Origin: a virus
Taxonomy: Duplodnaviria > Caudoviricetes
Virus record (IMG/VR): IMGVR_UViG_2786546882_000003
Location: 36,063-100,062 of that record
Strand: one strand, 5' to 3'
DNA length: 64,000 nucleotides
Under the pieces are notes generated by a model that saw nothing but the letters and a program-made list of their open reading frames with translations, was not told where the DNA came from and searched no databases. Both the position numbers and the translations under genes were made by a program. Shown here piece by piece: positions 37,775 to 63,253 of this stretch. Each line of letters opens with the position of its first letter. Within the stretch, counting starts at the first letter, position 1.

Positions 37775-37949
37775 CCGATCCGGCGAGTATCAGCAGCGGA
37801 AGAACCTCTCCGGCTATGACAGGATCAAATCTCCGGTCTTCCCTTCTTCCAGCTCCATACTTGAGCGAGTTGTGATGGTAACTAAACAGTATCCACGCAG
37901 CAACAATCGCAATAAAAAGCACGACAAGACGACGTACTAGGGCCATCAT
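37737..37949 (-). CDS. possible small two-TM membrane protein
   Basis: Two hydrophobic segments; fills the gap between the two large + strand genes. Confidence 0.3.
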   Translation of the reverse strand: MMALVRRLVVLFIAIVAAWILFSYHHNSLKYGAGRREDRRFDPVIAGEVLPLLILAGSAIYCLRADPEGS

Positions 37950-40900
37950 GGTTGATCTTCTCCGAGCTGCTAGGCTAGGCACTACGCCAGCCATCCAGGA
38001 CAACGAAAAAAAGCAGCAGCGACTAACTCCGATCAGGGCGGCTACTAACCGCGCTGAGCCAGATCAGTCTATCTTATCAAGTCTTGCTAGTACAGGCTTG
38101 AGTGGACTGGCGAAAGTCGGGAACTTTTTGGACCTTCCTGGTTCGGTCGTGCGCGATGTCAGCACCTGGCTCCCAGGCGGAATCGAAGCGCAGAATCCAG
38201 TCGATCAGTTTCTTTCCCCATTCACTTCAGAGAACCGTGTCTCCGGCGAAGACATGCTCCAGTCAGCAGGTCTTGCTGGCGAGAACACTTGGGGCGGATT
38301 GGCTGGTGGAATCGCAACCGAAATCGCGCTTGACCCTTTGACTTATTTGAGTTTTGGCGCGTCGGCTGTCGGAAAAGCTGGAACAGCCGCTGGCAAGGCT
38401 GGCCTCACTAAGAACGCCAAGTCGGTCGCGAACGAACTTGCTGGCCGAACTCTAGGCAAGGAGTCAGGCAAAAGGCTTGGTGCTACCAGCGCGAGGCAAA
38501 CGCTAACGCCGCGCAATCTGATTGACGCTGCTGCGGATCCAGCGGAAGCGATGAAGCGATTCAAGGTGGCTGGTGGCACTGATGCGATGCTCGATGAGAA
38601 GCTCGGTGGAGTTGCGAAGTTTTCTGTTCCATTCTTGTCGAAGCGATACGGAGATACTGTCCCCGCCCTGCGCGAACGAGTCCTGGGGACTACCGACCTG
38701 ACGCCTTCGCAGCTCGGCGCTAAGCCTTGGATGAAGGGTGGCGATGGCCCAAGCGGTCCCGATGCAGGTAGTGCCGCAAAGCCAAAGTCACCTCTGGATC
38801 CGAATGCTGACACTGGCCTGAAGAACCCGACGCCTGAAGAGTTCTCGGCTATCTCTCCGAACCACGCTCGGTTCAACCAAGAACTAGATGGTCTTCAACA
38901 GAGTGGTATTCTTGACGACGCTGACTCTGAGATCCTTCGCGGAATCTTTAGCCAATCAGACCTTGGCGGATTCGATCGAGTTTACTTCCGTCCAGTCAAA
39001 GAGATCTCGCCTGAGGCTACTCCCGAGATCGTGTCTGCATACGGCGCGAATGTTCCAGAAATTGGCGGTGCTGCAACAAAGACTCCCGATGGCGGATTTG
39101 ATATCCAGCTTTCTCAAAAGGCGCTGGCTGATGGAAACTACGTCGACACCGGAATTGACACTCTCGTTCATGAGATCGGCCATGCTTTTTTGGAGACAAC
39201 GAAGAAGCCACAGGGCGAGGCTGGCGTTGATGTTGTTTCTGAGTTCGACAATCTGATCAAAGACGGGACTCTCGGTCGATACTTCTCCGACAACTACGGC
39301 CCTGAGAAGGCAGCATACTTCGGACAAAATCCGCACGAGGCATTCGCTCAACTGTTCGCCGACTCGGTTATCAAGCGCAAGGGCCAAGAGATGCCCAAGC
39401 CAATCGAGTCATTCTTGGGCAAGGTGCGCAAGTTTGTTTCAGACATGCTCTCAAAGGTCCTTGGAAACAAGCAGCTGAGCGGTGAGGCAAGGCTGCGAAC
39501 CGATGCGATGATTGACTTGGTCGGAGGATTTATCGGTCCAGATCAATACAAGTCGATTATCGGAAAGGCTGACTCTGCATCGTCCAAACTGGATTTCTAC
39601 AAGCCAGCTACGAGAAAGATGCCTGGCATCGAGCCTGATGCCACTGGGATGTTCAGTCAAGTCGCCAGATCTCTTGACGCCATATTCCGCGAGTCGAGTT
39701 CGCTTCCTGCTGACCAGATGCTTGCTAGGCTGAGAAAAATGCCTGGAGTCAAAGAGGAGGAGATTGCTGACCTTGGTCTTGACAAGCTCAGTGGAAAGCG
39801 ACTCAGTCGAAATGACATCACTGACCACCTCAGCAAAAACATGCTCACCATGGAGGAGGCGATCAATACTGGAGACCGCGCTGGTTTCAGTGATCTTGCA
39901 GTTCCTGGTGGCGATGATGGAACTTACCGAGAACTTATCCTCAAGGCCAATGCAGGTGGAAAGCGAATTGAGGGCGGCGCCGATACTCACTGGATGGGCG
40001 ATGATTCGATTGCGCATATCCGGCTTGACGATGTTTCGCTTGCGAACGGAGAGAAGATTCTGCGAGTCAATGAGATCCAGAGCGATTGGATCCAGGGGCT
40101 GCGCAAGTTCGGAACGAAAACCGAAGATTTGCAAAGCGAAGCGAAGTCCATCAAGAAGGAAATGTCTGGCAACGCAGTTGAGCTTTTTCTCACAAGGCAG
40201 CAGATCAAACAGCTTGGAGAAAACGCACCCCCAGAGTTGCTTGCAAAAGAACAGTCATTGACTCAGAGTGTCGAGCAAGCAAGCTCTCGCATAACTCAGA
40301 TCGGAAAGATGCCAGCCGATGCCCCGATGAAGAAGTCGTGGGACAGCATGGCCATCAAAAAGATCTTCGACTATGCAGTCGCAAATGGGTATGACGGAGT
40401 TTCATTCGTCGACGGCCAGGATATCGCAAAGGTTGTTCAAGGTCCTGCTGATGCACTAAGTGGCTTCTATAACAAGGTTCAAACTCTCGCCGGAAAAATT
40501 GCAAAGAAATACGGAAGCGGAAAGGTATCGAACGAGAAGCTGGCCGGTCAATTCATCAACGACAGCGAGGAATTGCGCCGTGGTGTGACGTTCCCTGTCA
40601 CGGACGAGATGCGAAACACGATTGGCTCAGGTGGACAGCCGAGATACAAACCAGCGGAAAAAGTGGCCGAAGCCGCCAGCGCTGCTAAACAAGGAGCAAC
40701 TAAGGCGGCATCGTACGCAAACGACATGGCAAGGAGAGCGTTGTCGTCAGTCGGTGAGCTTGCGCTAGATAAAGATCTTGGTGCTGCTGTCGGCGCCACA
40801 ATGGACACTGTTGGAGGATTCTTCAAAAACTCTGCGCCAGTGAGATACCTTCGCGCCACCATCACCCCAGAGATGCTTGGCGCTTCAACCGAGCTTGGGC

Positions 40901-43746
40901 AGGAGATCGGCCAAAAGCGATTCGAGGCTTTGCAAGAGACGAAATATGAGATGCGGAAGCGAATGTTTCCGATCGCAAAGCAATTCCTCCAGAGCGAAGC
41001 ACTTGACTACGAAAAGCTCGTCGAAAAGCTTGGCGATGCGAAGAAGGCAAGAGGCGTTCTTAACACGAATTACCTGGAGGTGACTCGCTATCTTGAAGGT
41101 GGCACGGAACTTCTGGCTAAGGGCCAATCTCCAAAACTACCCGACGAACTGAAGCCGCTCATTCCTGCGATGGATGACATTCGCACTGCGCTGGATGAGA
41201 TCAGGCAGACCGAAATCAACAGCGGCCTCAAGTCTCCTCAGCTGGACGACATGTTCATCGACTACTTGCCTCGCCAGTTACAAGGGTTCCCGAACGACAA
41301 GTCGACTGGTTCTGGGAACTTAGGCAAGTTGTTTGAATTCGGAACTCCTTACCAGAAGCAACGCAAAGAATTTTTGCGAAATCTTCCAGGCGGAACATCC
41401 TCGATCAACAAACTGTCTCTTGATCCGCTTGTTTCGGGAATCGCCCATAGCTACCCTGGGTCTAAGATACCGGACGATGTCCTTCAGGAAGCAAAGAAGT
41501 ACCTGCGTGAATCATACGGCGGTGGTCAAGCAGGAAATAGAGAGCGAGATAGTATCTTCCATCTTGACATGGATGACAACAACAACGACTTGGATAAGCT
41601 TGCTCGGTGGATCACTGGTCTAGATCCAAGACATGCTGAACTCCAGGTTCCTGTATTCAAGCTTGATCCTGTTCAAAACGTGATGAACCGAATCGAATCT
41701 GGGCTTGCAGCGTCTTCGGCTGCTGATTTTACCACTGCGATGATTGCAAAAGCGGCTACCGAAGCTGGCGAAAATATATCAGATCCGAACTTGTACGATA
41801 TCCTGGTGGATAAGTTTGCAGTCGACGGCGCGGACGGCGACAAGATCAAGGAAATCGTCATCGGAAAGATGGGAGAAACCTTTCAGACTAAGCGTTTCGC
41901 GATGCAAGATGCTGCTGACAAGCTTGCGAGATCTCAGGTCGATGAATTGATTGCGAAATCGAATGTTACTGAAGATGGGATCTTGTTTGACGAGCCAGTC
42001 GTTGGTTCGATCGGTACAAGCAAGGCTAAGTTCCTCGGTGTCAAGGGTGATCAAGTTATCTATCAGTCTTCTGGCAAGAAAGGCTATGCTCCGCTTGACT
42101 CCATCGGTGGAAAAACTGTATCAGAAAACGATGTTCTCAAACAGTTTTCTATTCCTCAGCAACTGAGTGATGCGACATTCAGGTATCTCAAGGGGTTTAC
42201 TTCGCCTGAGGCACCCGATGCTATTCGCAAAGCACTGGGTCAAATCACTAGCCTATATAAGAGTCAGTTGACGATTCCTTGGCCAGCGTTCCATGTGCGC
42301 AACCTGCTGAGTGGTCAGTATGCAAACTGGCTGAACAACGCAACTGACCCTCGATATTCCGGTCCTCGCGCGATGGTCGAGCCGATTCGCGATGCGGACA
42401 GAGTTTTCAGAGGAGAATCCATACCTGACATCCTGAGCATTCCAGCGATTAAGGAGCTGGGGATAACCGATGAGTCTCAGGCTATGGAGTGGCTGCGCCA
42501 GGAGATCTTTGCAAACAAGCTTGTCGACTTTGGCCAAGGGATTTCAGCAGAGGCAGCTGCGAACAACTTGTCAGATATTCGCTCTCAGGTTGTCGGCCAA
42601 GTTCCGAAGAAGCGACGAGACATACTCGCTAAGTTGCCTCCGAGGCCGATTGGCGCATCGAAAGCGCAATCGTTCAATCCGTTGGCCGGAGCAGGAATCC
42701 TTGGTGCGACAGAGGATACATTTGGTCCGTATCGCTGGGGTCGGCAGGTTGGTGCATACACCGAGGGAATGAACCGCATTGCTCCTTTCATAGCATTTCT
42801 TCGGCAGGGGATGGACTCGCAAGAAGCTATGCGTCGAGTTCTTGCTGCACAGTTCGACTACAGCAAGATGACTCCGGCAGATCGTGACATCAAATTGTTG
42901 ATTCCGTTTTATGGATTTTCGCGAAACGTCCTGCCGTTCGTCGTCGGCAATCTTGTTCGCGATCCAGGCGGCGCGTTAGGGATGACAGTTCGCGCCACAA
43001 GAAACGCATCGGCAAGTCAGCCGTTGCCAGACTATCTTGCTGGCCAAACTGCAATCCCGTTTGGTACGCGAGGTGATGTGTCGGAGGGTAATTCGTCGTT
43101 CCTGACAGGATTTGGATTGCCGCACGAAGACACTCTTGGTCTGGCTGGTCTAGTAACAGGCGATCCAGCAGATGGCTTCAGGAATATTTTGTCTCGGATG
43201 AATCCGCTTGCCAAATCGCCGCTTGAATTGGCGTTTGGTGAGTCTACTTTCTTTGATGCCCCTGGAGGTGGGAGAGCACTGAAAGATCTTGATCCATTGG
43301 TTGGCCGTATTGGATCGAATATCAAAGACTTGGCGACTGGGTCTGATACCATGCGTGCTCAACCAGTCATGGGATCTCCATTACTAGAGCATGCGTTAGC
43401 TAACAGTCCGTTCAGCCGCGTCTTGACGACAGCGAGAACTATTACCGATCCAAGAAAGTGGAAGAACCCACTGAAACTTGGCCTCAATCTAGGCACAGGG
43501 ATGAGAGTGACCGACGTAAGCGAAAGCTCATGGGACGCAACAGTCAGCGACTTGATCTCAGAGAGAATGAGAGAGCTAGGCAGTCGCGATTTTGTCAGGA
43601 GCTATTTTCCGCAATATGCGCAAGAAGCAATGACAGACGAACAGCTTTCAGAAGCAAACTCACTGGAAGAGTTGATGAACTGGTTAGCGAATAGAGCTAA
43701 ACAGCGCAAGGCCGATCGAGAGGCTAAAGCCAATGCGCAAAACTAA
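37948..43746 (+). CDS. giant internal virion / polyvalent-type protein (1932 aa) with zincin domain
   Basis: TLVHEIGH...HEAFAQLF; GVKEEEIADLGL, YRELIL, AHIRL, RVNEIQSDW, DAPMKKSW; C-terminal PAFHVRN, FDYS, IPFYGF. Confidence 0.75.
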   Translation: MVDLLRAARLGTTPAIQDNEKKQQRLTPIRAATNRAEPDQSILSSLASTGLSGLAKVGNFLDLPGSVVRDVSTWLPGGIEAQNPVDQFLSPFTSENRVSGEDMLQSAGLAGENTWGGLAGGIATEIALDPLTYLSFGASAVGKAGTAAGKAGLTKNAKSVANELAGRTLGKESGKRLGATSARQTLTPRNLIDAAADPAEAMKRFKVAGGTDAMLDEKLGGVAKFSVPFLSKRYGDTVPALRERVLGTTDLTPSQLGAKPWMKGGDGPSGPDAGSAAKPKSPLDPNADTGLKNPTPEEFSAISPNHARFNQELDGLQQSGILDDADSEILRGIFSQSDLGGFDRVYFRPVKEISPEATPEIVSAYGANVPEIGGAATKTPDGGFDIQLSQKALADGNYVDTGIDTLVHEIGHAFLETTKKPQGEAGVDVVSEFDNLIKDGTLGRYFSDNYGPEKAAYFGQNPHEAFAQLFADSVIKRKGQEMPKPIESFLGKVRKFVSDMLSKVLGNKQLSGEARLRTDAMIDLVGGFIGPDQYKSIIGKADSASSKLDFYKPATRKMPGIEPDATGMFSQVARSLDAIFRESSSLPADQMLARLRKMPGVKEEEIADLGLDKLSGKRLSRNDITDHLSKNMLTMEEAINTGDRAGFSDLAVPGGDDGTYRELILKANAGGKRIEGGADTHWMGDDSIAHIRLDDVSLANGEKILRVNEIQSDWIQGLRKFGTKTEDLQSEAKSIKKEMSGNAVELFLTRQQIKQLGENAPPELLAKEQSLTQSVEQASSRITQIGKMPADAPMKKSWDSMAIKKIFDYAVANGYDGVSFVDGQDIAKVVQGPADALSGFYNKVQTLAGKIAKKYGSGKVSNEKLAGQFINDSEELRRGVTFPVTDEMRNTIGSGGQPRYKPAEKVAEAASAAKQGATKAASYANDMARRALSSVGELALDKDLGAAVGATMDTVGGFFKNSAPVRYLRATITPEMLGASTELGQEIGQKRFEALQETKYEMRKRMFPIAKQFLQSEALDYEKLVEKLGDAKKARGVLNTNYLEVTRYLEGGTELLAKGQSPKLPDELKPLIPAMDDIRTALDEIRQTEINSGLKSPQLDDMFIDYLPRQLQGFPNDKSTGSGNLGKLFEFGTPYQKQRKEFLRNLPGGTSSINKLSLDPLVSGIAHSYPGSKIPDDVLQEAKKYLRESYGGGQAGNRERDSIFHLDMDDNNNDLDKLARWITGLDPRHAELQVPVFKLDPVQNVMNRIESGLAASSAADFTTAMIAKAATEAGENISDPNLYDILVDKFAVDGADGDKIKEIVIGKMGETFQTKRFAMQDAADKLARSQVDELIAKSNVTEDGILFDEPVVGSIGTSKAKFLGVKGDQVIYQSSGKKGYAPLDSIGGKTVSENDVLKQFSIPQQLSDATFRYLKGFTSPEAPDAIRKALGQITSLYKSQLTIPWPAFHVRNLLSGQYANWLNNATDPRYSGPRAMVEPIRDADRVFRGESIPDILSIPAIKELGITDESQAMEWLRQEIFANKLVDFGQGISAEAAANNLSDIRSQVVGQVPKKRRDILAKLPPRPIGASKAQSFNPLAGAGILGATEDTFGPYRWGRQVGAYTEGMNRIAPFIAFLRQGMDSQEAMRRVLAAQFDYSKMTPADRDIKLLIPFYGFSRNVLPFVVGNLVRDPGGALGMTVRATRNASASQPLPDYLAGQTAIPFGTRGDVSEGNSSFLTGFGLPHEDTLGLAGLVTGDPADGFRNILSRMNPLAKSPLELAFGESTFFDAPGGGRALKDLDPLVGRIGSNIKDLATGSDTMRAQPVMGSPLLEHALANSPFSRVLTTARTITDPRKWKNPLKLGLNLGTGMRVTDVSESSWDATVSDLISERMRELGSRDFVRSYFPQYAQEAMTDEQLSEANSLEELMNWLANRAKQRKADREAKANAQN

Positions 43747-43910
43747 CATCCTCCAGCTCGAACACAAATCTGTCTACGAATGTTTTCAATCTTGTCCGGT
43801 GCAGCAGCAGGTCAGCACTAGCGCCTCCGCAGTATACTCCCTGCATGGCACTTCGCATTCCTATGAACTGATGCTTGGATAGTCGAAGCGTTGACATGAG
43901 TGGAGACATT

Positions 43911-44002
43911 AAAAACCTTGACTTATCTTACCATGTCGTACCATAACGTAACCCAACCCAACGGAACATGCTTTAACTTAACAAAGCAAAACTCGCGTTA
44001 AC
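43911..44002 (-). ncRNA. pentamer guide unit E (17 triplet+NN repeats, tail GTCAAGGTTTTT)
   Basis: - strand: gttAA cgcGA gttTT gctTT gttAA gttAA agcAT gttCC gttGG gttGG gttAC gttAT ggtAC gacAT ggtAA gatAA gtcAA ggttttt. Confidence 0.8.
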
Positions 44003-44010
44003 CGGCGATA

Positions 44011-44490
44011 CTACTTATTGAAAAGACTAAGTGTCTCTCCAATAGAAATCTCACTTGTAGACTTCTGGACCTTTGTTGCGATCTTTTTCGCAGATGTCTT
44101 CTTTGAAAACAGCGATATAGCTCCCATCTGCGCCGAAGCTACCACATGCTGTCTCTTGTAATCTTCCGGAAGAGAGTCGAACTTAACGACACTCAGTTTG
44201 TCGAGAGTCCTTTTTGACGCCCGAAGTATCCTAACTCTGTCGCTTTCGGTTGTGTCGACAATCTCCTCGTCATCGAGTCGCTTTAGCCCAACCCCTCGCT
44301 CTACCCCGAAGACAATACCACATTCGAGCAGTAAGCTTCGCCTCGCCGTGACTAGCGATGAAGATGCATGCTTACGCACGTCCCGGCCAATGGCCGTGCT
44401 AATTTCATCGTATGTTATTAACTGACCGACACTGGCAGCTTTGAGCATAGACTCAATAATTCGAGTGTCGGATGATTTTTCGTGGATCAT
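44011..44490 (-). CDS. accessory protein of the RAMP/pentamer locus, winged-helix-like N-terminus
   Basis: GQLITYDEISTAIGRDV...VFGVERGVGLKRL; embedded between units D and E. Confidence 0.65.
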   Translation of the reverse strand: MIHEKSSDTRIIESMLKAASVGQLITYDEISTAIGRDVRKHASSSLVTARRSLLLECGIVFGVERGVGLKRLDDEEIVDTTESDRVRILRASKRTLDKLSVVKFDSLPEDYKRQHVVASAQMGAISLFSKKTSAKKIATKVQKSTSEISIGETLSLFNK

Positions 44491-44523
44491 GGTGCATCTT
44501 CATCCTGAAAGGATCGTTATCCG

Positions 44524-44616
44524 AAAAAACCTTGACTTGTCTTGGCGCACTGCAACCAAACGAAACATAACGCAACAGGACCAAACAAAACGAGCCCTAA
44601 CGAAACGCAATGCGTT
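44524..44616 (-). ncRNA. pentamer guide unit D
   Basis: - strand: aacGC attGC gttTC gttAG ggcTC gttTT gttTG gtcCT gttGC gttAT gttTC gttTG gttGC agtGC gccAA gacAA gtcAA ggtttttt. Confidence 0.78.
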
Positions 44617-44621
44617 GAAAT

Positions 44622-44704
44622 AAAAAACCTTGACTTGTCTTACCAAAGCGCAACTCAACTCAACGAAACCAAACCCAACCTGACCCAACGAAACTAAACG
44701 CGAC
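44622..44704 (-). ncRNA. pentamer guide unit C
   Basis: - strand: gtcGC gttTA gttTC gttGG gtcAG gttGG gttTG gttTC gttGA gttGA gttGC gctTT ggtAA gacAA gtcAA ggtttttt. Confidence 0.8.
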
Positions 44705-44725
44705 TAATTGTATTGTTGTTGTGTT

Positions 44726-44813
44726 AAAAAGCCTTGACTTACCTCTCCGTGTCACAACGCAACTCACTCCAACGCAACCATACTCAGCACAACGCATCTA
44801 AACACAACGAGAA
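44726..44813 (-). ncRNA. pentamer guide unit B
   Basis: - strand: ttcTC gttGT gttTA gatGC gttGT gctGA gtaTG gttGC gttGG agtGA gttGC gttGT gacAC ggaGA ggtAA gtcAA ggcttttt. Confidence 0.78.
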
Positions 44814-44825
44814 TCAGTGCCAAGA

Positions 44826-45383
44826 CTAAACCCAGTCAACATCCTCAACGGAAAATCGACCGTAATAGCCGTTGTTTCTTGGGCGGAATCTGCCAACTCC
44901 GATGAACGAACCGGCGTCACGAAGGTGCTCAGTGAATACGTCTTTCGTGATAATCTCGTCAAGCACTAGGAACTCAACGACACCATCCCAATTCTGAACA
45001 AGCGGAAAGCACTTCTCTACTCGCTTGCTTCCTCCGCGCCGACCGTCGCTTGGAACGTGCAGCCATTCTCCGTGGATGTCGTCGATCTTTGTGTCAAGAA
45101 CGAGCGGCTCGACCACAAGAATCCCGGCTTCAAAGTGCTTTGTAAATGTTGACTTTCCTTTGCCTGGGATCTGGATTGATTTGTACTTTGCGGCTTCGGC
45201 CAGGCAGTTCTTAAAGCACATTGGTGGAATGAACAAATTGCCTTCTTTTGTAACGTGGCAGCGTTCTTTCCACACTCGCTTTTCAAAGTCTGCGTGAGTC
45301 TCGTCGCGACTCTTTTCGGACTGAATGAATCGGCCTTGGGAGTACGGGCTTGCACTCTTCAGGCGGCAGATTGCTTTCTTCAC
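44826..45383 (-). CDS. stand-alone RAMP/Cas7-like RNA-binding protein (Vipr-like), 185 aa
   Basis: N-terminal strand ICRLKSASPY, FIPPMCFKNCLAEAA (RAMP yiPg.s.Kg.l motif), C-terminal Gly-rich loop AGSFIGVGRFRPRNNGYYGRFSV; GTG start inferred. Confidence 0.75.
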   Translation of the reverse strand: MKKAICRLKSASPYSQGRFIQSEKSRDETHADFEKRVWKERCHVTKEGNLFIPPMCFKNCLAEAAKYKSIQIPGKGKSTFTKHFEAGILVVEPLVLDTKIDDIHGEWLHVPSDGRRGGSKRVEKCFPLVQNWDGVVEFLVLDEIITKDVFTEHLRDAGSFIGVGRFRPRNNGYYGRFSVEDVDWV

Positions 45384-45463
45384 AGGTATTCTCGCATCTT
45401 CAAGTATCACAGCAGACGAAAGGCACTGCTGACTGCCTTTGTGCTCATGCACATGACAAGACA

Positions 45464-45491
45464 ATCATACCCAAGTTGCGGAAGACGTCAA
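45464..45491 (-). promoter_or_regulatory. sigma70-type promoter of the RAMP gene
   Basis: - strand TTGACG, 16 nt, TATGAT. Confidence 0.7.
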
Positions 45492-45502
45492 CCAAAATCC
45501 AC

Positions 45503-45532
45503 AAAAAAATCCCAGGCTTGGGACCTGGGATT
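45503..45532 (-). terminator. intrinsic terminator after guide unit A
   Basis: - strand AATCCCAGG-loop-CCTGGGATT then TTTTT. Confidence 0.75.
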
Positions 45533-45624
45533 AAAAACCATGACATACCGTGACAGAACTCATCGTACTTTAACACAACGCATCTTGACGTATCAGGACG
45601 TGCTACGCCGTACGTCGACGTGTT
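45533..45624 (-). ncRNA. pentamer guide unit A
   Basis: - strand: aacAC gtcGA cgtAC ggcGT agcAC gtcCT gatAC gtcAA gatGC gttGT gttAA agtAC gatGA gttCT gtcAC ggtAT gtcAT ggttttt. Confidence 0.75.
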
Positions 45625-45628
45625 GATC

Positions 45629-45682
45629 AAAAAACCCAGCGCCGCAAGCTAGGAGGGTGGCATTGTGCCCGCGGCGCTGGGG
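45629..45682 (-). terminator. terminator-like hairpin after the 45697-46203 gene
   Basis: - strand CCCAGCGCCGC...GCGGCGCTGGG then TTTTTT, with a long loop. Confidence 0.55.
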
Positions 45683-45696
45683 TGCTGGTTGAATCG

Positions 45697-46203
45697 CTAT
45701 GCGCTGTAGTCAGGCAGCGCTTCGCAGACCTCGTAAAGAAACTCGACGGTCACGAGACCGCCAGCAGTGAATTTCTCGTCCGATGCAGTTCCACCAGTCT
45801 GGCAAGTGTAGAGCGATACTGTCGTTTCACTTGCAATGACTGCATGCGCAATCATGCTTGTGACTTTCGTATTCGCTGTCAGCGCAGACGTGAGCCCGTA
45901 AAGATCTGGATCTGCGGCAGTTCCAACTCCGATTTTTGCGAAATTGTCTGACCCGGAGCCGTCGCCGGTTACAGCCGTGTCGATTCGAGCACGAACTGCC
46001 TTGACAACAGCCCCCGCTGGAAGAGTATTTGTCAAGTCGACCTTGAGCGAGTTTGTCAATGTGACTTGCTCGCTGAAAGACACCAAGTCTGTGATGTCTT
46101 GCTCGACCTCAACCTCTTCCAAGATCTCCTTGATCTCGTCCGCAGCTGCCTTGTTGCCAAGCGCCGTCTGTAGGGACCGCACGGTCCCGCTCTTCAGTGT
46201 CAT
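45697..46203 (-). CDS. virion-type beta-sandwich protein (capsid decoration-like)
   Basis: TLPAGAVVKAV....TAVT, IGVGTAADPDLY, FTAGGLVTVEFLY pattern. Confidence 0.55.
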   Translation of the reverse strand: MTLKSGTVRSLQTALGNKAAADEIKEILEEVEVEQDITDLVSFSEQVTLTNSLKVDLTNTLPAGAVVKAVRARIDTAVTGDGSGSDNFAKIGVGTAADPDLYGLTSALTANTKVTSMIAHAVIASETTVSLYTCQTGGTASDEKFTAGGLVTVEFLYEVCEALPDYSA

Positions 46204-46733
46204 AAATCCTCGTCTCCTTCAAATCGCGGCATCTGCGCCGCTAAAGCACCTTCGATATCTGGGCCACGCCACCCAGGTGGTTTCCTTACTTTTCCGTTCT
46301 CGTCTTTGTGGGCGCCGGGGCCAAACTTTCGGTCGTTTGCGTCACACACTTCCAGCGTCGGAAGAAAGTCGCTTACTCCCATCGCAAGAAGCATCCAGTG
46401 GCAGACGTATTGGGTATCAATGCAGCCGTCAGTTGATTCCTTCAGGCTGAACTGGCTATCGGCCAAGTTGATCAGATCGAGCTTTCCGGCGTCGTTGAAT
46501 CCGATCTTAAACCCAAGAGCCTCGATAGTTTCCCTTGCCTCTTCAAGGATCAGCGAAGCACCCAAGCGTCTGACATCAGCCCCCGGATCTCCGGGGAATG
46601 GCAAGACTGGCTGGTTTCCTTGATCCATAAAAGCAAGAACTCGCTTGGCCACATCGCTCTTGCTGCAAGGAGCAGACGATTTGATAAATTCGCGGTATTC
46701 ATCCTGCGCCTTAATCTGTTCTTCGCTAAGCAT
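46200..46733 (-). CDS. MazG-like / PRA-PH NTP pyrophosphohydrolase
   Basis: LILEEARE, DGCIDTQYV, EVCDANDRK, GKVRKPPGW. Confidence 0.8.
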   Translation of the reverse strand: MLSEEQIKAQDEYREFIKSSAPCSKSDVAKRVLAFMDQGNQPVLPFPGDPGADVRRLGASLILEEARETIEALGFKIGFNDAGKLDLINLADSQFSLKESTDGCIDTQYVCHWMLLAMGVSDFLPTLEVCDANDRKFGPGAHKDENGKVRKPPGWRGPDIEGALAAQMPRFEGDEDL

Positions 46734-47247
46734 TGAGTGCGTCCCTGCAAGTGATAGCTACGGCAAGTGCCTGCCAAACGTGACTTGAGATTCCGTACAG
46801 CGGGCCTTGGTTTTTCTTTGTTCCAACCTGCGGTACTTTTCCACCACCAGTTGGTTCGTACATGTCGATTATGGCCTGACGGACGTTCGAGTCGCCTGCT
46901 CTGCTGTTCTTGCAAATATGTAGCAAGATAGCCGGTATCCCCTCAGAATCCTGCTTTCGGTAGAGTAGCTTTGCAGGTGTGCCAGAAGAGCCAAGTTCAT
47001 AAGCCTCCTGGAATCTCCCAATCCAGCGTACCGTCTCGAACGTGGATGATCCGACAGCGAGCCCATAACTGGCCACCATTTCGATTGCTAGCTCTGATTC
47101 GCCAAAGTACCGATCACGAATCATCTGCAGCAAATCTTCGTTCGCGCAGTATCCGTGCTCGATTACTTCCGTTCCGTCGATCCAAGCCCAGGCGCTTTGC
47201 CAAGTACCTGGATCAACACCAACGACTCTCGGTCCAATCCTTGACAC
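46726..47247 (-). CDS. RuvC-like Holliday junction resolvase
   Basis: VVGVDPG, LAIEMVASYG, FETVRWIGRF, HVWQALAVA; GTG start inferred. Confidence 0.8.
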   Translation of the reverse strand: MSRIGPRVVGVDPGTWQSAWAWIDGTEVIEHGYCANEDLLQMIRDRYFGESELAIEMVASYGLAVGSSTFETVRWIGRFQEAYELGSSGTPAKLLYRKQDSEGIPAILLHICKNSRAGDSNVRQAIIDMYEPTGGGKVPQVGTKKNQGPLYGISSHVWQALAVAITCRDALNA

Positions 47248-47257
47248 AAATGGCTTC

Positions 47258-47677
47258 CTAGAAAGGAATGTCGTCAGCAGTTTCGTAACTTGAACTGCTT
47301 TGCTGCTGCTGTCGTGGCTTTCCGTTCGACTGGGCGCCACTGCCATCGCCCTTGCCGCCAAGCATCTGCATCTTGTCGCCGATGACACTCAGCTTGGATC
47401 GCTTCTGGCCATCAGATTCCCACTGGTCAAGTTTGAGACGCCCTTCAACAAGGATGTTCGATCCCTTCTGCAGGTATTCGCCGCACACTTCAGCCGTTCG
47501 CCCAAAGAACGTCACGTCGACAAATGTCGTTTCATCTGTCCACTCGCCGTTCTTCTTAACGCGATCATTTACCGCGAGACCAAGCGTTGTGATCGCAGTT
47601 CCGCTTTGCGCGTACTTGATCTCGATGTCTCGCGTGACGTTTCCGGCGAGAATAACTCTGTTGAATGACGCTGCCAT
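47258..47677 (-). CDS. ssb: single-stranded DNA-binding protein
   Basis: FNRVILAGNVTRD, YLQKGSNILVEGRL, C-terminal DDIPF. Confidence 0.95.
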   Translation of the reverse strand: MAASFNRVILAGNVTRDIEIKYAQSGTAITTLGLAVNDRVKKNGEWTDETTFVDVTFFGRTAEVCGEYLQKGSNILVEGRLKLDQWESDGQKRSKLSVIGDKMQMLGGKGDGSGAQSNGKPRQQQQSSSSYETADDIPF

Positions 47678-48315
47678 TACGCAACTGCCTCTTCTTCTGG
47701 GGTGCTGATTCCAACAGCCTCAAGAACCTTGACTTCCAGTTCGTGAAGCGTTCCACTGTTCTCGATCTTGCAGTCAGCCATCTGGGCAACTGCCATCTTT
47801 TCGCTAGCGTGACTGACGTTCGTATCGATTCGTGGATTCTCTACCCACAAGATGATCCCACCCAGCGACTTGATGTACTCACCTTCGTTCGGAAAACGAA
47901 CATCGCTAATCACGAAGCAAGGTGGAGGCATCTTCGCAGCCTTCGCAAACTGCTCAAGATCCTGAATCTTCTTGTCAACTTGCTTGATCCAGCAGTCGGC
48001 GCCGAACATGTTCCGGCAAACCTCAGTGCCGAAATACTGCAAGTGATGACGAACATCTTCGGACTTCTTCGCCTCATCCCAGCCAACTGCGTCAACAAGT
48101 TTGCTGAGACGATTGAGCCAGGTAATTGGGACATCAGGATCGTTTGTGATCCCGTTGCTGCCCTGCCTGGCAACGACAATCGGGTCGAGCTTTAGAAGCC
48201 CATCTCTGACAGAGTCCGCAAAAGCAAGCTTTGTGTACCCTCTCTCAACCAGGAAAGACGCGGCAGTATCTTTGCCGTGCCTCATCTTCCCGCATATACC
48301 TACTAAATTTGCCAC
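47677..48315 (-). CDS. deoxynucleoside monophosphate kinase
   Basis: GICGKMRHGKDT, LAFADSVR, RHHLQYFGTE, ISDVRFPNE, HASE. Confidence 0.9.
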   Translation of the reverse strand: MANLVGICGKMRHGKDTAASFLVERGYTKLAFADSVRDGLLKLDPIVVARQGSNGITNDPDVPITWLNRLSKLVDAVGWDEAKKSEDVRHHLQYFGTEVCRNMFGADCWIKQVDKKIQDLEQFAKAAKMPPPCFVISDVRFPNEGEYIKSLGGIILWVENPRIDTNVSHASEKMAVAQMADCKIENSGTLHELEVKVLEAVGISTPEEEAVA

Positions 48316-48392
48316 CGCTATCCTCCGGGTGCGTTTGGAGAAATTACATTCGCCAGATTCTACGTCCGGTTGCGAAACTTGTCAACCAGAAT

Positions 48393-49502
48393 TTAATCGC
48401 AAAAAACTTCGCGAACGTCAACAGCGCCTGGCCGGTCCCGGTCAATCACGATGAATGTCTGCGATGGATGCGAGAAAGCAGCCTTCACTCGGCGCTGTGC
48501 GTAGGCGTTGTACCCAATCAAGCAATTGCAGCTGACGAACTTCGGGTGGCGAAGGAATTGGTGCCAATGGCCGAAGACATCCAGGTCGCTCTTTAGGCCA
48601 TCGTCCCAGTTGCGGATTGCCTTCAGGACAGGAATGGTGATCCCCCCTACCCCGCCGTTGTATCGAATCTCGTCTCCGTGGTGGAAGCGAACTCGCTTGC
48701 CTTCGATGTTGGCGAGATTGAAGTAGGAGTTCACAACGTGCCATTTGACTTTTGGCTCGTTGCGATAGTCCTTCTCCATCCACTTGTAAAGCAGCCACTC
48801 GTAGCTCTGCTTATGCGCCGTGGAGACGCGAGGCTTCTGGGAGATTCTCCCGTGGTTTCCAGCCGACGTGTAAATGTCGACCTGCTCAACCCCAGTCTCC
48901 TTCACGATCGTATCAATCGCCGAGTGCAAGTGATCACGAGCGAACATCAGCGCCTCGGTTGGCGACAGGTAGTTCGATTCCTTCTGATCGTCGTGGAGGT
49001 GGCCGGTGATCATGTCACCGAGGACCGGAATCGCAATCCGATGGATGTTTGAGATCGACCGGACAGAATCCAGCAGCAGCAAGAACCGCTGTACGCATTT
49101 TTCAACACGCTTCGCAGCAATGTCCAGGTTGAACTCGTTAAGACCGTTGATCGTTGACGGATCTACCTGTTCTTCGCAGTGCCAGTCAGTCAAGACCAAC
49201 ATTGCAGTTGCGTCTCCACCGGAGTAACTCGGCTCTGGCTCATAGGTCTCGTACATCTCTGGAGTGGAAGAATCCAAAGACTCCAGGACTTCTGATTGGG
49301 CGAGAAGCAACTCGACATCGTCTTCAAGCTGTTTGCGCTGCGCTCTCTCGGTCGTCAGTTCTCTGTAGTAGCTCTTGGCCTTTTTCTCGGCATCAAGGGC
49401 GCGACGAAGGAACAGTGCTGGCTCCACGCTGTTTGGGGGCATGGCTGCCAAGTCAGTGAGCGGGACCTGTGAAAGCAAGTCTGCTGGGGGTGCATCGGTC
49501 AT
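48393..49502 (-). CDS. calcineurin-like metallophosphoesterase
   Basis: LTDWH, LGDMITG, AGNHGR, FHHGD, FGHWH. Confidence 0.85.
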   Translation of the reverse strand: MTDAPPADLLSQVPLTDLAAMPPNSVEPALFLRRALDAEKKAKSYYRELTTERAQRKQLEDDVELLLAQSEVLESLDSSTPEMYETYEPEPSYSGGDATAMLVLTDWHCEEQVDPSTINGLNEFNLDIAAKRVEKCVQRFLLLLDSVRSISNIHRIAIPVLGDMITGHLHDDQKESNYLSPTEALMFARDHLHSAIDTIVKETGVEQVDIYTSAGNHGRISQKPRVSTAHKQSYEWLLYKWMEKDYRNEPKVKWHVVNSYFNLANIEGKRVRFHHGDEIRYNGGVGGITIPVLKAIRNWDDGLKSDLDVFGHWHQFLRHPKFVSCNCLIGYNAYAQRRVKAAFSHPSQTFIVIDRDRPGAVDVREVFCD

Positions 49503-63166: not shown

Positions 63167-63181
63167 GTTGCTTCCATTGAG

Positions 63182-63253
63182 CAGGGTGCTAGGGAATCGA
63201 ACCCCAATTGTCCGCTCAGAAGGCGGTTGTCTTATCCATTAGACGAGCACCCC
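63182..63253 (-). tRNA. tRNA-Arg(TCT)
   Basis: Acceptor GGGGTGC/GCACCCT, D-arm GTCT/AGAC, anticodon loop CTTCTGA, T-arm TGGGG TTCGATT CCCTA; one mismatch in the anticodon stem; no encoded CCA. Confidence 0.85.

What the first reader, a model, noticed from the sequence alone, without database searches (positions are those of the whole stretch)
41365..46074. The skipped base falls on the codon wobble position in every decoded target, and all self sites are mismatched
For units E, C, A and B the NN pairs align with codon positions 1-2 and the skipped base with position 3, in both sense and antisense guides. Such guides would be blind to most synonymous escape mutations and would in effect encode a protein motif. 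The resident genes differ at 3-9 dinucleotides per site, consistent with discrimination against kin phages while sparing self, or with old self-derived guides. Caveat: I found the sites by translating in this phase, so ascertainment favours it. How such guides are written is unexplained, as no cas1 or reverse transcriptase is in the window.
Basis: partly seen in the sequence, partly recalled or inferred. Interest (0 to 1): 0.85.

Follow-up and report, generated by a model that had tools for sequence, protein, structure and literature searches.

The report
Phage VIPR guides spell rivals' gene alleles
This phage carries a VIPR system, a CRISPR-like RNA-guided gene silencer first described in 2026. 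Three of its five guides, read two bases per codon, spell versions of the phage's own genes as relatives carry them, which makes it an ordinary new member with an unusual fixed triplet.

Summary
The locus at 43.9-45.6 kb is a VIPR system on the minus strand. It has a 185-aa Vipr (a Cas7-like RAMP with a sequence hit to the solved SUSP1 Vipr), a conserved 159-aa accessory gene, and five vrRNAs. The vrRNAs are built of xxxNN pentamers whose fixed triplet is mostly GUU rather than the published GGY.

- **Unit A.** Its site in the neighbouring gene is marginal at DNA level. At codon level it is the unique best hit (10/15). Homologues of that gene fit the guide at up to 14/15.
- **Unit B.** Its site is chance, and unit D has no site.
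- **Codon phase.** E, C and A all skip codon position 3. Chance hits do so 47% of the time, so phase agreement of weak hits proves little.
- **Composition.** 91 of 135 guides from related loci fit codon positions 1-2 best.
- **Self sites.** All fall below the published 80% threshold.

The wobble rule and the absence of self-targeting are already published (bioRxiv 2026.04.26.720920; 2026.10.15.759431). This scan has noted the same guide/self pattern on other DNA. No external DNA target was found.

The parts
45533..45624 (-). vrRNA unit A: 15 guide pentamers plus a short tail. The fixed triplets are degenerate (GTC, GAT, GTT, CGT and others). It is its own transcription unit, lying between two terminator-like hairpins.
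   Evidence: Pentamer parse. Terminators at 45653-45635 and 45532-45508 on the minus strand. The decoded peptide fits homologues of the neighbouring gene at up to 14/15.
45464..45491 (-). Sigma-70-like promoter (TTGACG, 16 nt, TATGAT) upstream of vipr.
   Evidence: Consensus scan, 10 of 12 positions. This is a pattern match only.
44826..45383 (-). vipr, 185 aa (GTG start; an alternative start lies at 45410). It is a Cas7-like RAMP with the glycine-rich loop GVGRFRPRNNGYYGRF.
   Evidence: PDB chain 36pp 'SUSP1 Vipr protein', E=7.6e-4. BLASTP to the SUSP2 homologue, 6e-10. phrog_4652, 7.5e-12. AlphaFold model with pLDDT 86.9, whose top Foldseek hits are Cas7 of type VII and Csm3 of type III. 2082 homologues found, start fixed by alignment.
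44726..44813 (-). vrRNA unit B: 14 guide pentamers plus tail. Orphan guide.
   Evidence: No site above chance in the window, the assembly or the held loci.
44622..44704 (-). vrRNA unit C: 12 guide pentamers plus the tail GGTAA GACAA GTCAA GG T-run.
   Evidence: Its unique best hit in the assembly is the antisense site at 43003-43037.
44524..44611 (-). vrRNA unit D: 13 guide pentamers plus tail. Orphan guide.
   Evidence: No site above chance. Five hits at 3 mismatches in 202 family genomes, about the chance expectation.
44011..44490 (-). vap-like accessory gene, 159 aa.
   Evidence: Found next to vipr in 53 of 80 related loci. No Pfam or PHROG family. No similarity to SUSP2 vap1.
43911..44002 (-). 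vrRNA unit E: 14 guide pentamers plus the tail GGTAA GATAA GTCAA GG T-run.
   Evidence: The self site is an outlier only for pentamer positions 4-5 read with a one-base skip.
41365..41414 (+). Near-cognate resident site of guide E in the 1932-aa gene (37948-43746). Sense orientation, skipped base at codon position 3. The motif is KEFLRNLPGGTSSI.
   Evidence: 10/14 core dinucleotides, 12/17 with the tail, 22/28 bases. Single outlier in 7.1 million positions.
43003..43037 (-). Near-cognate resident site of guide C in the same gene. The guide is antisense to the mRNA, skipped base at codon position 3. The motif is NASASQPLPDY.
   Evidence: 8/12 dinucleotides, 18/24 bases. 9/12 at codon level, the unique best hit in the assembly.
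46030..46074 (-). Near-cognate resident site of guide A in the adjacent 168-aa gene (45697-46203, minus strand). Sense orientation, skipped base at codon position 3. The motif is SEQVTLTNSLKVDLT.
   Evidence: 8/15 dinucleotides (marginal). 10/15 codon-compatible, the unique best hit in the assembly. Homologues reach 14/15.

Best explanation
This is a VIPR (Viral Interference Programmable Repeat) system of a phage.

**Mechanism, by analogy with SUSP1 (inferred).** Vipr protomers would line up along each roughly 90-nt minus-strand vrRNA, one per pentamer. They would hide the fixed triplet (here mostly GUU) and present the two variable bases. The filament would then pair with double-stranded DNA while skipping every third target base, and so block transcription.

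**Targets (shown).** Guides E and C spell, as codon positions 1-2, two conserved motifs of the giant 1932-aa gene. Guide A spells a motif of the 168-aa gene next to the locus. In each case the spelling fits alleles of relatives at least as well as, or better than, the resident allele.

**Likely job (inferred).** The system silences those genes in related competing phages during co-infection or in lysogens. The resident copies have 4-7 mismatched dinucleotides, which puts them below the published 80% threshold, so they would be spared.

**Shown versus inferred.** Shown here: Vipr homology and fold, locus anatomy, the register and skip rule for E, the codon phase, and the better fit to non-self alleles. 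Inferred from the SUSP1 work: expression of the RNAs, filament formation, DNA binding and silencing. Also inferred: that the resident sites escape.
For: **Membership.**
- Vipr hits the solved SUSP1 Vipr by sequence.
- It has a confident Cas7-like fold.
- Its relatives in LESphi2 and DSL-LC04 are flanked by GGC/GGT-NN arrays.
- 68 of the 81 sequences examined (80 related loci plus the window's own contig) carry 199 such arrays.
- The vap-like gene is conserved beside vipr.

**Strand.** Terminators and a promoter lie on the minus strand, which is also the strand of vipr and vap.

**Rule.** Only pentamer positions 4-5 read with a one-base skip give the outlier. Skips of 0 or 2 give background.

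**Sites.**
- The self sites of E and C are the top hits in the whole assembly.
- At codon level E, C and A are each the unique best hit, and none of 200 permuted guides reaches the observed score.

**Non-self fit.**
- Guide A is compatible with 14/15 codons of P0171 and 13/15 of four others, including the nearest relative P0167. Self scores 10/15.
- Guide E is compatible with 12/14 in P0006 and 11/14 in P0004, against 10/14 in self.

**Clade-wide phase.** 91 of 135 guides fit codon positions 1-2 best. Summed likelihood beats positions 2-3 by 65 bits and positions 3-1 by 379 bits.

**Literature.** The skip rule, wobble alignment, targets on both strands and absence of self hits at 80% or more are all published.
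Against: - No external DNA target at 80% or more was found for any guide.
  - Exact sub-pattern scans of IMG/VR, JGI/ENA metagenomes and GTDB genomes gave nothing, or only chance-level hits.
  - These scans cannot tolerate mismatches inside the pattern.
- The fit to homologues is shown at protein level only. Their DNA could not be fetched.
- The closest homologue of the giant gene is only 47% identical, so the real target phage is unsampled.
- Guides B and D have no site.
- There are no expression data.
- Mismatch tolerance of VIPR is not reported in the papers read, so sparing of the resident sites is an inference. At base level they reach 75-79%, close to the threshold.
- The resident allele of the unit A motif is not unusually diverged for its family.
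- Near-cognate own-locus sites are not general in the clade: 3% of 125 guides at P<=0.05.
Confidence: 0.8

Rival explanations
1. Self-regulation. The near-cognate sites in the phage's own giant gene and neighbouring gene are the real, weakly bound targets. VIPR would then tune or time the phage's own late genes.
For: - Three of five guides have their best match in the whole assembly within 3 kb of the locus, in the phage's own genes.
- Base-level identity of 75-79% is just under the published 80% cut-off, and that cut-off is a bioinformatic convention rather than a measured limit.
Against: - Guides A and E fit alleles of relatives better than the resident alleles. A self-regulator would be expected to match itself best.
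- Published systems show no self hits and act on other elements.
- In the published reporter assay, perturbing NN pairing abolished silencing.
Confidence: 0.1
2. Old self-derived guides. The guides were copied from the phage's own genes and have since decayed, or the genes have drifted. The mismatches would then carry no function.
For: - The sites lie in the phage's own genes.
- Unit A has the most degenerate fixed triplets.
- Guide C fits self (9/12 at codon level) better than any sampled homologue (7/12 or less).
Against: - At the positions where guides A and E differ from self, they carry the residues that relatives have. Guide A scores 14/15 in P0171 against 10/15 in self. Guide E has K, I and T, as in P0004-P0006. 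Random decay would not converge on relatives' alleles.
Confidence: 0.07
3. Chance or ascertainment. The sites are the best of many weak matches, found by translating in one phase.
For: - This holds for unit B (6/15, below the chance maximum).
- It holds for unit A at DNA level (P=0.5).
- Weak hits fall in wobble phase 47% of the time regardless.
Against: - Untranslated scans recover the E and C sites as the top hits in the assembly.
- None of the permuted guides reaches the observed scores (0 of 200 or 300).
- Independent homologues fit guide A at 14/15.
Confidence: 0.03

Closest known systems
Type II VIPR systems of Escherichia phage SUSP1 and a Pseudomonas fulva prophage (bioRxiv 10.64898/2026.04.26.720920 and 10.64898/2026.04.26.720927)
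   Same: - A small Vipr RAMP of about 20 kDa with a glycine-rich loop, followed by a small accessory gene.
- Several vrRNAs of about 90-100 nt made of pentamer repeats, one upstream of vipr and the others downstream.
- NN read with a one-base skip, the skipped base at the wobble position, targets on both strands.
- No self hit at 80% or more.
   Different: - The fixed triplet is mostly GUU. The clade as a whole uses GGC > GUC > GGU > GUU, so the second base is G or U.
- The 3' tail is a short run of xxxAA pentamers ending in GG plus a T-run, not a pseudoknot.
- Vipr is only weakly similar to the SUSP1 protein: 38% identity over 63 residues.
- The accessory protein is unrelated in sequence to vap1.
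- The targets look like alleles of the phage's own genes rather than a satellite or prophage regulators.
Solo and VIPR-borne vrRNAs that target relatives' VIPR loci while scoring lower on self (bioRxiv 10.64898/2026.10.15.759431)
   Same: The guides match a rival's version of a sequence that the phage itself also carries. The lower self-match is read as avoidance of autoimmunity.
   Different: In that work the targets are vipr genes and vrRNA genes. Here they are a giant virion or ejection-type gene and a 168-aa gene whose domain also ends tailspike-like proteins.
Class 1 CRISPR-Cas Cas7 backbones (type III Csm3/Cmr4, type VII Cas7)
   Same: The RRM/RAMP fold is the top structural match. In the papers, the thumb breaks the guide-target duplex periodically.
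   Different: There is no CRISPR array, cas1/cas2, Cas10 or Cas5/6 at the locus (ORF list; the window beyond the locus was not searched for them). The guide is a pentamer repeat with two read bases per unit, not a contiguous spacer.

Membership tests
VIPR system | A Vipr protein: a small RAMP with an RRM core, glycine-rich loop and thumb, homologous to characterised Vipr | tested here: met
   Sequence hit to PDB 36pp 'SUSP1 Vipr protein', E=7.6e-4. BLASTP to the SUSP2 homologue, 6e-10. AF2 model with pLDDT 86.9, with Cas7 chains as top Foldseek hits at E down to 9e-8.
VIPR system | vrRNAs of 9-16 tandem pentamers with a conserved triplet (GGY or a related consensus) alternating with hypervariable NN, followed by a conserved 3' tail | tested here: met
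   Five units of 12-15 guide pentamers on the vipr strand share a common tail. The triplet is GUU/GUY here and G-K-Y across 199 arrays of related loci. Whether the published 'related consensus' includes GUY could not be read, because the figure is not held.
VIPR system | Targets read by the NN bases with a one-nucleotide skip | tested here: met
   For guide E, only pentamer positions 4-5 with a skip of 1 give an outlier: 10/14 against 8 or fewer for the 19 other register/skip combinations. This was tested on a near-cognate site, not on a perfect target.
VIPR system | Adjacent vap accessory gene | tested here: met
   The 159-aa gene is conserved beside vipr in 53 of 80 related loci. It shows no sequence similarity to SUSP2 vap1. 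Which of vap1-6 it is was not determined.
VIPR system | vrRNAs are expressed, co-purify with Vipr and direct DNA binding and silencing | not testable with these tools
No expression data were available.
VIPR system | Natural target at 80% NN match or more in another element, and none in the system's own contig | tested here: inconclusive
   No self hit reaches 80% (best 22/28 = 79%). No external DNA target was found with exact sub-pattern scans. Homologous proteins are compatible at 86-93% of codons.
CRISPR-Cas | A repeat-spacer array together with cas1/cas2 or a multi-subunit effector | tested here: not met
   Only vipr and the vap-like gene lie at the locus. Repeats are 5-nt units, not repeat-spacer units. 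Rfam finds only a tRNA in the window. I ran no dedicated search for cas genes across the whole window.

The most novel reading that the evidence does not exclude
Each guide and the diverged resident allele beside it travel together as a linked weapon-and-antidote pair. The phage silences rivals that carry the common allele of a conserved motif, and its own copy is protected by changes at the read bases. Those changes include the Leu CTN-to-TTG switches seen at all three positions where a guide reads CT. This would push allele diversification of virion genes, and it implies an unknown process that writes guides from rival alleles.
Probability: 0.25. Interest if true: 0.7.

Novelty: new member of a known kind. 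Interest (0 to 1): 0.4.

Why it matters
The principle in the finding is already in three 2026 preprints: guides skip the wobble base, so in effect they encode a protein motif, and they do not hit self. This window adds three things.

- **An independent case in a distant Vipr clade.** Its fixed triplet is GUU/GUY instead of GGY. That suggests the second scaffold base is not strictly read in this clade.
- **A clean example of guides aimed at alleles of the phage's own genes.** Two sites lie in one giant gene and one lies in the gene next to the locus.
- **A method point.** Decoding a guide to a degenerate peptide and comparing it with homologues of the near-cognate resident gene identified the likely target family when no DNA target was sampled.

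It also gives a caution. Wobble-phase agreement of weak hits is expected about half the time, because guide composition resembles codon positions 1-2.

Tried and rejected
**First idea, dropped.**
- I first read the plus-strand AAC triplets spaced by 2 nt, behind a TTGACT -35-like box, as small RNAs or sites for a TRAP-like ring protein.
- I dropped this once the Vipr homology, the minus-strand terminators and promoter, and the literature were in hand.

**Searches for perfect targets. None gave a convincing hit.**
- A single-protein scan for kin of the giant gene in IMG/VR found none.
- 37 distant loci (24-39% identity) gave at most 9/14 for E, at the homologous motif.
- Exact guide E patterns found nothing in IMG/VR, the metagenomes or the GTDB genomes.
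- A 9-unit guide E pattern in the metagenomes gave 67 hits.
  - The best, L173, scores 12/14 but lies in an unrelated signal-peptide ORF.
  - None of the 67 is homologous to the giant gene, and the chance of such a hit is about 0.16.
- A guide C pattern gave one 9/12 hit, at chance level.
- Guide D and guide B patterns found nothing.
- A guide A 9-unit pattern gave 7 in-frame hits. Five are one methyltransferase-like family with differing wobble bases, but the flanks do not match.
- Guide D with 3 mismatches in 202 family genomes gave 5 scattered hits against about 2 expected.

**Cross-targeting.** 135 guides of related loci, tested against 1.9 Mb of held loci, showed no advantage for a skip of 1. 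That set is too small to hold targets.

**Further homologue searches.**
- No shorter fragments of the giant gene were found.
- No homologue of the 168-aa gene was found in 400 class genomes or in GenBank phages.

**Test for unusual divergence.** The resident unit A motif is not unusually diverged for its family.

**Folding.** The units show no fold beyond shuffled controls, except B (z = -2.5).

Full report
**What is at the locus.**
- Between 43.9 and 45.6 kb the plus strand shows five units that start with AAAAACCTTGACTT and continue as NNAAC pentamers.
- On the minus strand each unit is a run of xxxNN pentamers whose first three bases are mostly GTT. Each ends in a shared tail (GGTAA GAYAA GTCAA GG plus a T-run), and the tail is itself in pentamer register.
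- The minus-strand order is: unit A, a 185-aa gene, units B, C and D, a 159-aa gene, unit E.
- Terminator-like hairpins flank unit A on the minus strand, and a sigma-70-like promoter precedes the 185-aa gene.
- Rfam finds nothing here.

**What it is.**
That led me to three 2026 preprints.
- VIPR systems consist of a small RAMP protein (Vipr), an accessory gene (vap) and vrRNAs of 9-16 pentamers. In each pentamer a conserved GGY alternates with a variable NN.
- The NN bases pair with double-stranded DNA while every third target base is skipped.
- The 185-aa protein matches the solved 'SUSP1 Vipr protein' by sequence (E=7.6e-4). It also matches the SUSP2 homologue (6e-10) and phrog_4652.
- Its AlphaFold model (pLDDT 86.9) finds Cas7 subunits of type VII and type III CRISPR complexes first.
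- Its relatives in LESphi2 and DSL-LC04 sit beside GGC/GGT-NN arrays.
- 80 IMG/VR loci encode 56-73% identical proteins. A de novo caller, run on these loci plus the window's own contig, finds 199 pentamer arrays in 68 of the 81 sequences. The triplets are GGC > GTC > GGT > GTT, and the tails are runs of xxxAA pentamers.
- The 159-aa gene accompanies vipr in 53 of the 80 loci.
- The locus therefore meets the tests for VIPR membership that can be run here. It has a GUU-rich scaffold.

**Checking the observation without translation.**
- I took the NN series of each unit and scanned every position of both strands with one wildcard between dinucleotides.
- Guide E has a single outlier in the whole 3.56 Mb assembly, at 41365-41405(+). 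It scores 10/14, or 12/17 with the tail. The next best is 8/14, and no permuted guide reaches it.
- Of 20 combinations of pentamer register and skip length, only positions 4-5 with a skip of one give this outlier. This is an internal confirmation of the published rule in a GUU-type system.
- Guide C's unique best hit in the assembly is 43003-43037(-), at 8/12. About one such score is expected by chance genome-wide. It lies in the same 5.8 kb gene as E's site, which is improbable by chance (about 0.002).
- Guide A's site, 46025-46074(-), is not significant by dinucleotides.
- Guide B's claimed site is below the chance maximum, and guide D has none.

**Codon-level scan and homologues.**
- A target in a relative can differ from the resident gene by Leu, Ser or Arg codon-family switches. 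I therefore also scanned all six frames of the assembly for codon compatibility.
None of 200 permuted guides reaches these scores. B and D give nothing.
- The independent test is the homologues.
  - The 168-aa neighbouring gene has 229 representative relatives.
  - Guide A decodes to T-[DE]-T-V-T-L-T-[KN]-A-V-[KN]-T-[DE]-L-T.
  - P0171 reads EETVTLTNAVKTDLT (14/15). Four others, including the nearest relative P0167, reach 13/15.
  - The resident gene reads SEQVTLTNSLKVDLT (10/15).
- For guide E, the three closest homologues of the giant gene read FLKNIPGGT-type motifs and are compatible at 10-12 of 14, against 10 for self. Three of the four positions where the guide differs from self carry the relatives' residues.
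- Guide C fits self best among the sampled sequences, but those are at most 47% identical overall.
- Decayed copies of self would not converge on relatives' alleles. I therefore favour guides aimed at kin alleles.

**Codon phase.**
- In E, C and A the skipped base is codon position 3, in sense and antisense orientation.
- Partial hits (6 or more dinucleotides) of real and of permuted guides on the contig fall in that phase 47% of the time. Phase agreement of weak hits is thus weak evidence.
- The bias itself is informative. With dinucleotide tables from 661 long ORFs, 91 of 135 guides from related loci fit positions 1-2 best, 34 fit 2-3 and 10 fit 3-1. Summed likelihood favours 1-2 by 65 and 379 bits.
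- In simulations, guides truly drawn from phase 1-2 are called 1-2 in 55% of cases.
- This test needs no targets and no translation-based site picking.

**Self sites.**
- At base level the resident sites reach 22/28 (E), 18/24 (C) and 21/30 (A). All are under the 80% cut-off the preprint used, which likewise found no self hits.
- Whether 75-79% is bound is unknown. The papers I read give no mismatch series.
- All three Leu positions where a guide reads CT are TTG in the resident genes, against a 20-25% TTR background. This is suggestive but thin, because the fourth Leu, where guide E reads TT, is also TTG.
- The resident unit A motif is not unusually diverged for its family.
- Near-cognate own-locus sites are not general in the clade.

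**Limits.**
- No external DNA target was found. The available collection scans need exact patterns, and every hit was at chance level.
Sequencing runs could not be queried.

**Verdict.**
Its core is already published.
- The same guide/self pattern has been noted by this scan on other DNA (these are unchecked notes).
- I class it as a new member of a known kind. It has a scaffold variant and a clear kin-allele targeting pattern.

Noticed in passing
L045-L124 (80 IMG/VR loci with Vipr homologues): Within one Vipr clade that has an invariant glycine-rich loop (GxGRFRPRNNG), the fixed triplet of the arrays ranges from almost pure GGC to almost pure GTC or GTT. Many GTC arrays are called on the strand opposite vipr, where they would read GAC. 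The second scaffold base therefore seems free, and strand calls for GTC/GAC arrays are ambiguous.
   Followed up: partly
window 43911-43932, 44524-44546, 44622-44644; related loci: The 3' tail in this clade is a run of 2-4 pentamers with NN = AA, followed by GG and a T-run. It is not a pseudoknot. In guide E's resident site, two of the three tail AA units also match (N, K codons). For C and A none match.
   Followed up: partly
L016:3637-3692 (minus strand): A GGTTT/GGTTA pentamer run of about 7 units lies in a phage contig that carries a distant homologue of the giant gene. It could be a low-complexity vrRNA or just a simple repeat.
   Followed up: no
window 37948-43746: The 1932-aa target gene has no Pfam or PHROG family. 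Its closest homologues (47% identity) carry the ART-PolyVal ADP-ribosyltransferase domain of polyvalent proteins (PF18760).
   Followed up: partly
window 45697-46203: The domain of the 168-aa gene (residues 40-165) recurs as the C-terminal module of much longer proteins. One of these has a pectate-lyase-like tailspike domain (P0259). It may therefore be a fibre or spike-end module.
   Followed up: partly
L200, L201, L203-L205: The 9-unit core of guide A (VTLT[KN]AV[KN]T) matches five IMG/VR contigs of one methyltransferase-like family. Their DNA differs at the skipped bases, and all matches are in frame. This illustrates wobble-blind matching, but the flanks do not fit the guide.
   Followed up: yes
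L173:2901-2926 (minus strand): Twelve consecutive units of guide E match a 1180-aa ORF with a signal peptide in an unrelated metagenome contig (FFKNMPGGTITI). The chance of such a hit is about 0.16, and the ORF is not homologous to the giant gene.
   Followed up: yes
window 46200-49502 and 63181-63253: Minus-strand genes beyond the locus look like a MazG-like pyrophosphatase (46200-46733), a Holliday-junction resolvase (46726-47388) and an exonuclease (48393-49502). A tRNA-Arg(TCT) lies at 63181-63253.
   Followed up: no
L206-L216: Vipr homologues of this clade (43-63% identity) sit in MAGs labelled from many phyla, including Propionivibrio, Desulfovibrionaceae, Dehalococcoidales, Cytophagia and Saccharibacteria. 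These are probably binned phage contigs or prophages.
   Followed up: no
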